DNA of 41,868 nt. Origin: a virus (taxonomy: Duplodnaviria; Heunggongvirae; Uroviricota; Caudoviricetes). Made by a program: the position numbers and the translations under genes. Below are positions 38,530 through 39,602 of the stretch, piece after piece (within the stretch, counting starts at the first letter, position 1; every line of letters begins with the position of its first letter). The DNA lies in IMG/VR virus record IMGVR_UViG_2974481312_000001, positions 1-41,868 of that record. One strand, 5' to 3'. Below the pieces are notes generated by a model that did no database searches, was not told the DNA's origin, and saw nothing but the letters and a program-made list of their open reading frames with translations.

Positions 38530-38557
38530 TAATAGTACACTATTATGTTTGGTTACG
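38530..38557 (+). repeat. Conserved element TAATAGTACACTATTATGTTTGGTTACG (copy A)
   Basis: 26 of 28 nt identical to 39575..39602; contains TAATAG-N4-CTATTAT. Confidence 0.8.
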
Positions 38558-38563
38558 TCAATA

Positions 38564-38728
38564 CTATTTCACGATTAATTTATCCTGGCACATAGTAAAG
38601 TAACGAGGCTTCTTCGCATGAGCGCGCCACCGCTCAACACGAGCATAGATGCCGATAAGCGCAGCTACTTTGCCGTGTCGGGTCTCTCCGTTACGTCCGG
38701 CCCAGGTTACGAGGTCGTTCGGTTTCAT
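38564..38728 (-). CDS. Small hypothetical protein (54 aa)
   Basis: GGAG RBS 6-9 nt upstream of ATG 38728; below the track cut-off. Confidence 0.3.
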   Translation of the reverse strand: MKPNDLVTWAGRNGETRHGKVAALIGIYARVERWRAHAKKPRYFTMCQDKLIVK

Positions 38729-38861
38729 TGTTGCATCTCCTGCAATAGTTGCGTTGATTGTTGCATTTAGTGAAATAGAAAAATATTAACAAAAATGGTA
38801 CGCTGCTACTCAGCAGCGTAAGTCACTCAGTAAAATCTCAAACTATTGTTACAATATAACA

Positions 38862-39053
38862 TCACACTTCCGGCGGCTGCGGTAATGGCACCCGGTGTGT
38901 CACATCGTCATTGCGAATGCTCGGGTTGCGCTCCGCCCAGCAATCCCACTCATCACCATCCCACCATTTAACTTCAACATGCTTGCCGTCTGTGATAAGG
39001 ACGTCGCTAAAATAATCAGGCATCTGCGCGCTACACTTAATCCACTTGCTCAT
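38862..39053 (-). CDS. DUF551-like protein
   Basis: C-terminal ..DDVTHRVPLPQPP resembles the DUF551 signature. Confidence 0.45.
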   Translation of the reverse strand: MSKWIKCSAQMPDYFSDVLITDGKHVEVKWWDGDEWDCWAERNPSIRNDDVTHRVPLPQPPEV

Positions 39054-39325
39054 AACTCCACCTTTATCGAGAAAACTTCCACGGGTTCACTGCCGAAGTG
39101 TGGGTGTGTTATTTCTTTAATCTCGTACCCACGGTACTTGCACTCTATTCTCCTGCTCTCGTCATCTCGTTTAGGGTATCCCTTCGTTATAATCAAACGG
39201 TCAAAGTCACGACCAACAAGGCGCCCCCACCAATAGTCATTTACCAGACGGTACTCTTCGGTCTTCTCCCTGCTCTTAATCGCGTCAAAATATTCACTTT
39301 TCACGGCCAACTGTAAGTTCTTCAT
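39050..39325 (-). CDS. ASCH-like domain protein (putative)
   Basis: Start moved to ATG 39325 with AAGGAGG RBS; N-terminal LQLAVKSEYFDAIKSREKTEEYRL pattern. Confidence 0.35.
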   Translation of the reverse strand: MKNLQLAVKSEYFDAIKSREKTEEYRLVNDYWWGRLVGRDFDRLIITKGYPKRDDESRRIECKYRGYEIKEITHPHFGSEPVEVFSIKVEL

Positions 39326-39574
39326 AAACGGCAACCTCCTTTAAGGCTCAAGATTCGCTGGCGCAGACTCTTTAGAATCTTTTGCCGTGTAGTTATTTCC
39401 GATTAGCTTGGCCTAGTGCGCACTAAGCATCCCGTAATTTTCTTCACCTAGTTGTTTAGCGAATAGAGTAGTATCGCGTTGGGTAATTACAATGTAATAC
39501 CCCCCGGATAAAACACCGCGGACTAACTGACCCTTCTTAAACATGATTCATCCTCTTGTTTTGCTAACCTGCAA

Positions 39575-39602
39575 TAATAGTACTCTATTATATTTGGTTA
39601 CG
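39575..39602 (+). repeat. Conserved element TAATAGTACTCTATTATATTTGGTTACG (copy B)
   Basis: Near-identical to 38530..38557; its first 20 nt are identical to the promoter element at 3832..3851. Confidence 0.8.

What the first reader, a model, noticed from the sequence alone, without database searches (positions are those of the whole stretch)
38530..39602. Two near-identical 28-bp copies of the element flanking an early gene cassette, without promoter context
TAATAGTAC(A/T)CTATTAT(G/A)TTTGGTTACG occurs at 38530-38557 and 39575-39602 in the same orientation, bracketing the DUF551-like, ASCH-like and small-ORF genes. Unlike the copies above, neither has a properly spaced -35 on either strand, so these look like pure operator or recombination sites. 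Direct repeats flanking a cassette could also mark a mobile or exchangeable module.
Basis: seen in the sequence. Interest (0 to 1): 0.5.

Follow-up and report, generated by a model that had tools for sequence, protein, structure and literature searches.

The report
Two leftward phage promoter-operator modules
The two 28-bp repeats are real, but they are most likely two copies of this phage family's standard host-type promoter with a built-in repressor-binding palindrome, each reading leftward into small early genes, and not the ends of a mobile cassette.

Summary
The window is a whole Jerseyvirus genome (about 100% identical to Salmonella phages f2SE, f3SE and fSE4S; the size matches f18SE). 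Both 28-mers are at the stated coordinates and are 26/28 identical. No shuffle gave two matches.

The claim of no -35 on either strand holds only for the + strand. On the coding (minus) strand each copy reads as a sigma70 promoter:
- P1: TTGACG-18-TACTAT
- P2: TTGCGT-17-TACTAT

Each palindrome ends 26-30 nt upstream of a start codon with a ribosome-binding site. The TTG and its spacing are kept in relatives.

The 16-bp palindrome (core AATAG-N4-CTATT) is the genome's most frequent perfect palindrome. It overlaps at least eight promoters, at different registers. The likely binding protein is a 72-aa homologue of phage 434 Cro (928-1146, minus strand), because 434 operators have the same 5+4+5 layout. 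This link is inferred.

The region is highly variable among relatives, but genes swap one at a time at gene boundaries. The interval between the repeats never moves as a unit. No repeat-to-repeat deletion junction was found in 439 matching records.

The motif has already been reported in silico in relatives SGP-C and fBC-Eco01. Overall this is an ordinary feature of low to moderate interest.

The parts
38530..38557 (-). 28-bp copy 1 (P1). On the minus strand it covers the last 2 nt of the -35, the spacer CGTAACCAAACA and the 16-bp palindrome.
38525..38561 (-). Predicted sigma70 promoter P1: -35 TTGACG at 38561..38556, 18-bp spacer, -10 TACTAT at 38537..38532, inferred start near 38525. It reads into the 67-aa gene and on towards the HslV-like, holin and lysin genes.
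   Evidence: Orthologues keep TTGACG or TTGGCA at the same spacing in 9 of 11 phages.
38530..38545 (.). 16-bp palindrome TAATAG-TACA-CTATTA (14-bp core 38531-38544). Putative operator overlapping the -10 of P1 (about -20 to -5).
39575..39602 (-). 28-bp copy 2 (P2).
39570..39605 (-). Predicted sigma70 promoter P2: -35 TTGCGT at 39605..39600, 17-bp spacer, -10 TACTAT at 39582..39577, inferred start near 39570. It is the first promoter of the leftward small-gene array.
   Evidence: TTG is invariant in 8/8 orthologues while the next 3 nt vary: CGT, CAG, AGT, TGT.
39575..39590 (.). 16-bp palindrome TAATAG-TACT-CTATTA. Putative operator overlapping the -10 of P2.
39413..39544 (-). 43-aa ORF (MFKKGQLV...), first gene after P2. 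RBS aagagga; the ATG lies 30 nt after the palindrome.
   Evidence: no Pfam hit
39050..39325 (-). ASCH-like gene (91 aa).
   Evidence: weak, E=0.09. Annotated as ASCH in relatives. 68-69% DNA match to Stx-converting prophages.
38862..39053 (-). DUF551 gene (63 aa; 'EaA protein' in some records).
   Evidence: (E=1e-7)
38799..38820 (-). Intrinsic-terminator-like hairpin followed by CCATTTTTGT. It ends the P2 unit inside the supposed cassette.
   Evidence: fold z = -4.0; conserved in relatives
38773..38788 (-). Degenerate copy of the palindrome (TAATATTTTTCTATTT) just after the terminator and upstream of the 54-aa gene.
38564..38728 (-). 54-aa ORF. Its stop codon abuts the -35 of P1.
38300..38503 (-). 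67-aa ORF, first gene after P1. RBS aaagga; the ATG lies 26 nt after the palindrome.
928..1146 (-). 72-aa phage 434 Cro homologue (XRE-type HTH). Candidate protein that binds the palindrome.
   Evidence: Pfam HTH_31 2.7e-7 and HTH_3 3.4e-7. PDB best hit 434 Cro, E=1.4e-8, nearly full length. Homologues occupy the cro position in lambdoid phages.
1174..1248 (.). Divergent promoter pair at the Cro-like gene. Leftward: TTGCAC-17-TACTAT (1204..1176) with palindrome 1174-1189, the same architecture as P1 and P2. Rightward: TTGCAT-17-TATAGT (1220-1248) with palindrome 1229-1244 in the spacer.
3823..3851 (+). Class A promoter TTGACA-17-TATATT with palindrome 3832-3847 in the spacer.
   Evidence: annotated as an RpoD promoter in AG11
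8033..8061 (+). Class A promoter TTGATA-17-TATATT with palindrome 8042-8057 in the spacer.
   Evidence: annotated as an RpoD promoter in AG11
19639..19667 (+). Promoter TTGCAT-17-TATTAT with palindrome 19651-19666 (third register, -35 then N6).
36223..36257 (-). Promoter TTGACT-17-TATATT. Its -35 lies inside a one-mismatch palindrome at 36242-36257, at the head of the leftward block that runs to the packaging and structural genes.
   Evidence: annotated as an RpoD promoter in AG11

Best explanation
The two 28-mers are paralogous copies of one regulatory module used throughout this phage family. The module is a host sigma70 promoter on the minus (coding) strand with a 16-bp palindromic operator built into its core.

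Reading 5' to 3' on the minus strand, each module is: -35 (TTGACG or TTGCGT), then a 9-10-nt spacer (CGTAACCAAAYA), then the palindrome TAATAGnGTACTATTA. The right half of the palindrome supplies the -10 (TACTAT). A 20-26-nt leader, a ribosome-binding site and a start codon follow.

P2 (39605..39570) starts the leftward array: the 43-aa ORF, the ASCH-like gene and the DUF551 gene, ending at the hairpin 38820..38799. P1 (38561..38525) restarts transcription into the 67-aa gene and the genes that lead to the lysis cassette. The repeats look like direct repeats flanking a cassette only because successive leftward transcription units begin with the same promoter type.

Inferred step: host RNA polymerase fires these promoters after infection. 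A dimer of the phage's 72-aa 434-Cro-like protein then binds AATAG-N4-CTATT. That protein is itself made from a promoter of the same design. Because the site covers about -26 to -5 of every promoter that carries it, binding would block RNA polymerase. The result would be shut-down or tuning of a regulon of at least 8 promoters, including the protein's own.

Shown here: sequence, architecture, conservation, homology of the protein.
Inferred: transcription start points, promoter use, which protein binds, and the sign of regulation.

Sub-confidences: about 0.8 that both copies are minus-strand promoters; about 0.55 that the dyad is the operator of the 434-Cro-like protein.
For: 1. Promoter geometry. 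The consensus scan finds TTGACG-18-TACTAT at 38561..38532. P2 has TTGCGT-17-TACTAT. All eight palindrome sites have TTGnnn-17/18-TAnnnT on exactly one strand, and it is always the strand of the adjacent gene.
2. Position. The three sites with the P1/P2 design (1174, 38530, 39575) end 26-30 nt upstream of an ATG with an RBS.
3. Conservation. In 12 relatives plus whole genomes AG11 and Golestan, the -35 TTG, the spacing, the palindrome and TACTAT persist while flanks diverge. P2 orthologues show TTG+CGT/CAG/AGT/TGT.
4. The palindrome is more than a sigma70 element.
   - AATAG-N4-CTATT is the most frequent perfect 5+N+5 palindrome in the window, AG11 and Golestan.
   - There are 9 sites with up to 1 mismatch, against 1.1 expected.
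   - It sits at three different registers relative to the -35 (N3, N6, N9-10). One half always lies in the spacer, where RNA polymerase reads no bases, yet it is the best-conserved segment.
   - Some Kagunavirus copies change both ends together (GAATAG...CTATTC), which keeps the symmetry.
   - A related genus (GRNsp27) has ordinary -35/-10 promoters at the equivalent places examined and no such palindrome.
5. Candidate binding protein. The product of 928-1146 matches 434 Cro best among all solved structures (E=1.4e-8, residues 6-69 aligned to 4-65). Its homologues sit in the cro slot of lambdoid phages next to 14-bp ACAA-N6-TTGT operators, the same 5+4+5 layout. Its own promoter carries the palindrome.
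6. Annotation and literature. The sites with the palindrome in the spacer are annotated as RpoD promoters in AG11. PHIRE analyses of relatives list this element as a conserved regulatory element or promoter, including two copies in the same small-gene region of fBC-Eco01.
Against: - No transcription start data exist for any member of the subfamily. The one RNA-seq time course (a Kagunavirus) has gene-level resolution only, and I could not identify its 'early HTH gene'.
- P2 matches consensus at only 7/12. Its -35 (TTGCGT) is 3/6, below the scanner's threshold.
- A better-looking hexamer (TATAAT in P2, CATAAT in P1) lies 5 nt upstream of TACTAT but has no -35 at a usable distance. The true -10 is therefore not certain.
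- Two phages have GTGGCG in place of the P1 -35.
- The link between the Cro-like protein and the palindrome is by analogy only. A second small HTH protein (HTH_17, 40138-40308) or a host factor could bind instead.
- GRNsp27 keeps a Cro-like protein with a rather similar recognition helix (TQSAISH vs SQSLITH) yet lacks the palindrome. This weakens a simple one-protein, one-site reading.
Confidence: 0.7

Rival explanations
1. The two direct repeats are recombination sites, or the ends of a mobile or exchangeable cassette. Recombination between them, or with matching repeats in other phages, would move the DUF551/ASCH/small-ORF block as one unit.
For: - The region is one of the most variable in the genome. 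Coverage of 38250-39900 by relatives falls from 100% to about 15%.
- Conserved promoter modules are flanked on both sides by homology breakpoints: 38512-38518 and 38569 around P1; 39522-39544 and 39605-39625 around P2. They could therefore serve as homologous linkers between divergent phages.
- A whole promoter module (P3) differs by a clean 44-bp indel between f18SE and Kenya-K6.
Against: - Breakpoints also occur at every internal gene boundary, and the repeat-to-repeat interval is never present or absent as a block.
- The expected P1xP2 deletion junction is absent as a contiguous match in all 439 matching records.
- The longest uninterrupted identity between the copies is 10 bp.
- Orthologous copies resemble each other more than P1 resembles P2 within a genome, so there is no sign of gene conversion.
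- No integrase, transposase or terminal inverted repeats are present.
Confidence: 0.08
2. They are pure operator sites that are not promoters. A regulator would bind there only to block or pause transcription coming from an upstream promoter (a roadblock), and the -35/-10 matches would be accidental.
For: - The palindrome is the best-conserved part.
- P2's hexamers are weak at 7/12.
- A possible upstream leftward promoter is annotated in AG11 at the position equivalent to window ~40062..40036.
Against: - The -35 TTG at a fixed 17-18 bp is conserved across two genera while neighbouring bases vary.
- The module always lies directly upstream of an RBS and ATG.
- P2 orthologues are the first recognisable promoter for the whole leftward array in several phages.
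- An intrinsic terminator lies between P2 and P1, so genes downstream of P1 need a restart.
Confidence: 0.12
3. They are promoters for a phage-encoded RNA polymerase. This is how the PHIRE-derived motif was labelled for fBC-Eco01.
For: The motif tgAATAGTa-ccTATTat-T was listed as 'phage RNAP promoter' in PMC9825357.
Against: - No RNA polymerase gene is annotated in AG11 or Golestan.
- Every site carries sigma70-type -35 and -10 hexamers.
- The motif occurs in both orientations relative to the transcribed gene, which a single-subunit polymerase promoter would not tolerate.
- The label follows from how that paper applied PHIRE, which it used specifically to predict phage-RNA-polymerase promoters. 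PHIRE itself only finds repeated elements.
Confidence: 0.02
4. The palindrome is bound by something other than the Cro-like protein, such as the HTH_17 protein (40138-40308) or a host transcription factor. The promoter reading would stay the same.
For: - HTH_17 is a second small DNA-binding protein encoded next to this region. The SGP-C authors proposed it as a regulator.
- GRNsp27 has a Cro-like protein but no palindrome.
Against: - The 5+4+5 dyad layout matches 434-type operators.
- The Cro-like gene has the palindrome in both of its divergent promoters, whereas no copy lies at the predicted HTH_17 promoter.
- No host factor with this site comes to my mind, but that is memory only and was not tested.
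Confidence: 0.2

Closest known systems
Phage 434 / lambdoid Cro-operator-promoter units (OR/OL)
   Same: - A small (about 71 aa) Cro-type HTH protein. The f18SE protein matches 434 Cro best among solved structures.
- A 14-bp dyad operator with 5-bp arms and a 4-bp centre.
- Operators overlap the core of sigma70 early promoters.
- The regulator's own promoter carries an operator.
   Different: - A different half-site (AATAG rather than ACAAG/T).
- Single operators scattered over at least 8 promoters around the genome, rather than triple operators at two loci.
- No CI partner or integrase, and the phage group is generally regarded as virulent.
- Binding has not been tested.
PHIRE-detected 'conserved regulatory element' of Guernseyvirinae (SGP-C: TAATAGTACCCTATTATGTT, PMC8790156; fBC-Eco01: tgAATAGTa-ccTATTat-T, PMC9825357)
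   Same: It is the same sequence element. The SGP-C consensus differs by 1 nt from the first 20 nt of the 38530 copy. fBC-Eco01 copies PP6 and PP7 lie in the equivalent small-gene region.
   Different: Those papers give only a consensus and a label ('phage promoter'). They describe no strand assignment relative to the -35, no dyad/operator reading and no link to the Cro-like protein.
T4-type PeSL mobile regulatory cassettes (early promoter plus stem-loop flanking variable ORFs; Arbiol et al. 2010, recalled from memory and not read here)
   Same: Repeated early-promoter modules punctuate a hypervariable block of small ORFs, and conserved modules are bounded by homology breakpoints. One module (P3) is present or absent as a clean 44-bp indel.
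   Different: No stem-loop is attached to P1 or P2. There is no evidence for excision, circles or movement of promoter-ORF units. Swaps occur at all gene boundaries, not only at modules.
Ordinary sigma70 early promoters annotated in Jerseyvirus AG11
   Same: The -35/-10 hexamers and 17-18-bp spacing. Three of the palindrome-bearing sites (window 3832, 8042, 36242) are annotated there as RpoD promoters.
   Different: P1 and P2 deviate more from consensus (9/12 and 7/12) and were not annotated. Their -10 lies inside the palindrome instead of after it.

Membership tests
sigma70-dependent promoter | -35 TTGACA-like and -10 TATAAT-like hexamers 16-18 bp apart | tested here: met
   P1: TTGACG-18-TACTAT, 9/12. 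P2: TTGCGT-17-TACTAT, 7/12 and weak, with TTG and TAnnnT present.
sigma70-dependent promoter | Correct orientation and a short distance upstream of a gene with an RBS | tested here: met
   The palindrome ends 26 nt (P1) and 30 nt (P2) before a minus-strand ATG, with RBS aaagga and aagagga.
sigma70-dependent promoter | Hexamers and spacing conserved in orthologues while flanks drift | tested here: met
   TTG is invariant in 8/8 P2 and 9/11 P1 orthologues at constant spacing. TACTAT is kept in nearly all.
sigma70-dependent promoter | Mapped transcription start, or activity in vivo or in vitro | not testable with these tools
   No TSS data were found for the subfamily.
434/lambda-type Cro operator | Dyad-symmetric site of about 14-17 bp with arms one helical turn apart | tested here: met
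   AATAG-N4-CTATT has a 10-bp centre-to-centre distance and is the most frequent perfect palindrome in three genomes.
434/lambda-type Cro operator | The site overlaps the core promoter it controls | tested here: met
   It spans about -26..-11, -23..-8 or -20..-5 in the three registers.
434/lambda-type Cro operator | A cognate Cro/CI-type HTH protein encoded by the same genome | tested here: met
   928-1146(-): 434 Cro E=1.4e-8; HTH_3/HTH_31.
434/lambda-type Cro operator | Demonstrated specific binding and repression | not testable with these tools
   This needs EMSA or footprinting and reporter assays.
434/lambda-type Cro operator | Protein and site co-vary across lineages | tested here: inconclusive
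   Kagunavirus (protein about 50% identical) keeps the site. GRNsp27 (42.6% identical) lacks the site but has a similar recognition helix.
Mobile cassette / site-specific recombination sites | Presence/absence polymorphism with junctions exactly at the repeats | tested here: not met
   Breakpoints occur at all gene boundaries. No P1xP2 junction in 439 records.
Mobile cassette / site-specific recombination sites | An associated recombinase or transposase | tested here: not met
   None in the annotated relatives AG11 and Golestan. Pfam on the local small ORFs shows none.
T4-type PeSL cassette | An early promoter coupled to a stem-loop at ORF boundaries in a hyperplastic region | tested here: inconclusive
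   The promoter modules and hypervariability are present. P1 and P2 have no significant hairpin (z -0.2 and -1.3). Only the degenerate copy at 38773 abuts the terminator hairpin.
Phage-RNA-polymerase promoter | A phage-encoded RNA polymerase gene | tested here: not met
   None is annotated in AG11 or Golestan.

The most novel reading that the evidence does not exclude
A phage group that is generally regarded as virulent runs a Cro-only circuit. A 434-Cro homologue would use single 14-bp AATAG-N4-CTATT operators, embedded at three different registers in at least 8 sigma70 promoters, to time or damp most of its early and middle transcription, including the head of the packaging/structural block. 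The compact promoter-operator-leader modules (about 60-70 bp) would also act as portable linkers at which small accessory genes are shuffled and promoters are gained or lost, as with the 44-bp P3 indel.
Probability: 0.4. Interest if true: 0.45.

Novelty: new member of a known kind. Interest (0 to 1): 0.22.

Why it matters
For annotation, it corrects the reading of these two sites. They should be recorded as leftward promoters with an embedded operator, not as cassette ends. This adds two promoters that the AG11-type annotation misses.

For biology, it gives a testable regulon for Jersey-type phages, which are widely used in Salmonella biocontrol: one small Cro-like protein and at least 8 operator-bearing promoters. 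That bears on reports of carrier-state or 'lysogen-like' behaviour and superinfection immunity in this group (SGP-C, PMC8790156), and on engineering these phages. None of this would surprise a phage specialist.

Tried and rejected
1. RNA-level role of the palindrome. Folding the minus-strand sequence around each copy gave z = -0.2 and -1.3. The palindrome would also lie upstream of the inferred start, so this was rejected.
2. Known RNA families. Rfam at gathering thresholds found nothing in the whole window.
3. Repeat-mediated deletion. The synthetic junction query gave no contiguous hit.
4. Plus-strand promoter. No TTG-type -35 lies at 16-18 bp from a TAnnnT hexamer on the + strand at either copy.
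5. Use of TATAAT/CATAAT (5 nt upstream of TACTAT) as the -10. No -35-like hexamer lies 16-18 bp upstream of it, so TACTAT is preferred. This is not excluded.
6. Temporal class from the literature. The Kagunavirus K1B4 RNA-seq paper names an early 'HTH' gene (008). Neither the text nor the supplements let me tell which HTH gene it is.
7. Co-variation of the Cro-like protein and the operator using GRNsp27, phiEap-2 and SaI_NFG_5579. The palindrome is absent genome-wide from GRNsp27 and was not seen upstream of the gene in the other two, but the recognition helices are too similar to draw a conclusion.
8. Host-factor site. I could not recall any Salmonella or E. coli regulator with this consensus. 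This was not tested with a database.
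Full report
**Identity of the window.** The region 37900-40300 is 99.9-100% identical to Salmonella phages f2SE, fSE4S, f3SE and fSE1C (Jerseyvirus, Guernseyvirinae), and 387 phage records match it. The window length of 41,868 bp equals the published size of phage f18SE (PMC4599075). The replicative helicase-primase gene starts near 40595 and runs off the end of the window to finish at 913. The window is therefore a complete, circularly permuted genome.

**Observation.**
- The two 28-mers are exactly where stated and are 26/28 identical. They are the only matches with up to 3 mismatches, and no shuffle gave any.
- They bracket four minus-strand ORFs: a 43-aa ORF, an ASCH-like gene, a DUF551 gene and a 54-aa ORF.
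- Their first 16 nt form the palindrome TAATAG-N4-CTATTA. That palindrome recurs at 1174, 1229, 3832, 8042, 19651 and 36242, giving 17 strand-matches against 0.76 expected.
- An unbiased census of all perfect 5+N+5 palindromes ranks AATAG-N4-CTATT first in this genome, in AG11 and in the Kagunavirus Golestan.

**Promoter context.** All genes next to the two copies are on the minus strand, and read on that strand both copies have promoter context.
- The consensus scan reports TTGACG-18-TACTAT at 38561..38532.
- The second copy has TTGCGT-17-TACTAT at 39605..39577.
- The 28-bp repeat is therefore the 3' end of the -35, the spacer CGTAACCAAAYA, and the palindrome whose right half is the -10.
- The palindrome ends 26 nt (P1) and 30 nt (P2) before an ATG preceded by aaagga or aagagga.
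- The promoter of the 72-aa gene at 928-1146 has the same design: TTGCAC-17-TACTAT, with the ATG 27 nt after the palindrome.
- Nothing comparable exists on the + strand.

**Two further registers.**
- At 1229, 3832 and 8042 the palindrome lies 3 nt after a strong -35 (TTGCAT, TTGACA, TTGATA), and the -10 (TATAGT or TATATT) begins at its last two bases.
- At 19651 the gap after the -35 is 6 nt.
- At 36242 the -35 lies inside a one-mismatch palindrome.
- The sites equivalent to 3832, 8042 and 36242 are annotated as RpoD promoters in the curated AG11 record. P1 and P2 are not.

**Conservation.**
- In 12 fetched relatives plus the whole genomes AG11 and Golestan, the minus-strand unit TTGnnn-N9/10-(T/G)AATAGnnTACTATT(A/C) recurs at orthologous places.
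- For P2 the TTG is invariant while the next three bases vary (CGT, CAG, AGT, TGT). P1 has TTGACG or TTGGCA in 9 of 11 phages and GTGGCG in two.
- The palindrome is the most conserved block, although one arm always lies in the spacer, where RNA polymerase makes no base-specific contacts.
- Some Kagunavirus copies read GAATAG...CTATTC, with both ends changed and the symmetry kept.
- GRNsp27, from another Guernseyvirinae lineage, has normal -35/-10 promoters in the intergenic regions examined. It has no perfect AATAG-N4-CTATT site and only one single-mismatch site, which lies inside a gene.
- The dyad is thus a lineage-specific addition to working promoters. That is the expected signature of an operator.

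**Candidate regulator.**
- Pfam assigns 928-1146(-) to Cro/CI-type HTH families.
- Among all solved structures the best match is phage 434 Cro (E=1.4e-8, aligned almost end to end, 72 vs 71 aa), followed by the 434 repressor DNA-binding domain.
- By tblastn the protein is 95-100% conserved in Jerseyviruses and about 50% in Kagunaviruses. It is 35-48% identical to the gene in the cro position of lambdoid phages Huey and RothD.
- The Huey protein begins MQTLSERLKK...; from memory I recognise this as the 434 Cro sequence. It lies among ACAA-N6-TTGT operators.
- Those operators are 14 bp with 5-bp arms and a 4-bp centre, the same layout as AATAG-N4-CTATT.
- In the alignment, the Gln that corresponds (from memory) to Gln28 of 434 Cro is kept while the following recognition-helix residues differ. 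This fits a related but distinct half-site.
- The gene sits between two divergent palindrome-bearing promoters (1174 and 1229), as expected for autoregulation.
- All of this is inference. A second HTH protein (HTH_17, 40138-40308) or a host factor remains possible.

**Cassette hypothesis.**
- The region is very variable. Relatives cover between 100% and about 15% of 38250-39900.
- Mapping homology blocks in 12 relatives gives breakpoints at 38503-38518, 38569, 38722-38729, 38853-38903, 39016-39067, 39323-39398, 39494-39544, 39605-39625, 39708-39713 and 39843. These are essentially every gene boundary.
- Six phages carry extra genes inserted between P1 and the 67-aa gene. Others replace the 54-aa gene, DUF551, ASCH or the 43-aa gene individually. 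TS3, 5sent1 and VSe103 lack P2 together with the 43-aa gene.
- The repeat-to-repeat block never behaves as a unit.
- A synthetic junction (left flank + 28-mer + right flank) found only multi-piece matches spread over 660-1180 bp in the 33 records that cover most of it, out of 439 matching records.
- The longest perfect identity between the copies is 10 bp. Orthologues resemble each other more than the paralogues do, so there is no sign of gene conversion.
- No recombinase gene is annotated.
One module (P3) is present in Kenya-K6, SP-101, Bas73 and Golestan but is cleanly missing from this window as a 44-bp gap at 39712/39713. The modules may therefore act as homologous linkers during mosaic exchange. 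This resembles the T4 PeSL idea, but no defining feature of that system was met.
- The ASCH gene alone matches Stx-converting prophages at 68-69%. That points to gene-by-gene exchange with temperate phages.

**Transcription units as inferred.**
- P2 drives the 43-aa ORF, ASCH and DUF551, ending at the hairpin terminator 38820..38799 (z = -4.0).
- The 54-aa ORF follows. It is preceded by a degenerate palindrome at 38773-38788 that is conserved in at least 10 relatives.
- P1 drives the 67-aa ORF, the 123-aa ORF, the HslV-like peptidase, the holins and the lysin.

**Literature.**
[quoted passage not shown] TAATAGTACCCTATTATGTT' (PMC8790156).
- fBC-Eco01, a Kagunavirus: seven copies with consensus tgAATAGTa-ccTATTat-T, labelled 'phage RNAP promoters'. 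Table S2 lists one at 34223 on the forward strand, whose sequence and position match the Cro-gene promoter site at 34178 in Golestan, and two in the small-gene region (PMC9825357).
- No RNA polymerase gene is annotated in these genomes, so that label is not tenable.
- A sequence-string search found no other paper.
- No transcription start mapping exists. The K1B4 time course is at gene level only.

**Verdict.** The repeats are real and non-random, but they are ordinary. They are two copies of the family's standard promoter-operator module on the coding strand, at the heads of successive small transcription units in a mosaic accessory-gene region. My confidence is about 0.8 that they are promoters. 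It is about 0.55 that the dyad is the operator of the 434-Cro-like protein, and below 0.1 that they are cassette or recombination ends.

Noticed in passing
window 39712/39713 (compare L002 3590-3660, L011 about 3146, L015 about 37927): A third promoter-operator module (P3...attctCTTGCATaccccaacaTAAYAGGATRCTATTCacttatc) is present in Kenya-K6, SP-101, Bas73 and Golestan. It is cleanly absent from this window as a 44-bp gap between GCAACGTAACT and GAAATGCC, so promoter modules themselves are gained or lost as units.
   Followed up: partly
window 39603-40137: A non-coding stretch of about 530 bp lies between the leftward small-gene array and the rightward HTH_17/helicase operon.
- AG11 annotates a leftward RpoD promoter at the position equivalent to window ~40062..40036.
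- A terminator-like hairpin lies at 39794..39774 (minus strand).
- The minus-strand sequence 40035..39765 folds better than shuffles (z = -3.3).
- There is no Rfam match.
- The segment 39843-40400 is 94-97% conserved while its neighbours vary.
It could be a small RNA or leader, or the replication origin.
   Followed up: partly
window 928-1248: A 72-aa homologue of phage 434 Cro is encoded in a phage group generally regarded as virulent, between divergent palindrome-bearing promoters. No CI-like partner or integrase is annotated in relatives.
   Followed up: yes
window 36223-36257: At the head of the leftward block that runs to the packaging and structural genes, just after the terminator that follows the lysin gene, a one-mismatch palindrome (TAATAGTTGACTAGTA) contains the -35 TTGACT of a TTGACT-17-TATATT promoter. 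The same regulator may therefore also touch late genes.
   Followed up: partly
window 10408, 21313, 22098: An identical GC-rich hairpin (AGGCCCC-GAAA-GGGGCCT type) recurs at three places where gene direction changes. It also occurs in Golestan and GRNsp27. These are probably shared bidirectional terminators.
   Followed up: no
window 38773-38820: A terminator hairpin followed directly by a degenerate copy of the palindrome (TAATATTTTTCTATTT) is conserved almost base for base in at least 10 relatives. It may be a decayed or weak promoter for the 54-aa gene.
   Followed up: partly
window 29063-29076 (AG11 5772): A one-mismatch copy of the dyad core (AATAGAAATCTACT) lies at a conserved position in both f18SE and AG11, within an AT-rich stretch near the spanin and head genes. 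Its promoter context was not examined.
   Followed up: no
window 39050-39325: The ASCH-like gene alone matches many Stx-converting and other lambdoid prophages at about 68-69% DNA identity, and DUF551 is annotated as 'EaA' in some records. These accessory genes seem to be shared with temperate phages.
   Followed up: no
literature (PMC8790156): A Jerseyvirus (SGP-C) is reported to form superinfection-immune 'lysogens', possibly episomal. The authors point to the Cro-like (ORF49) and HTH_17 (ORF46) genes. If true, the operator regulon described here would be the obvious mechanism.
   Followed up: no
window 37932-38303: The 123-aa ORF downstream of P1 gives only a faint AP2-domain hit (E=0.11) and is called 'putative HNH endonuclease' in one relative. 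Its function is unresolved.
   Followed up: no
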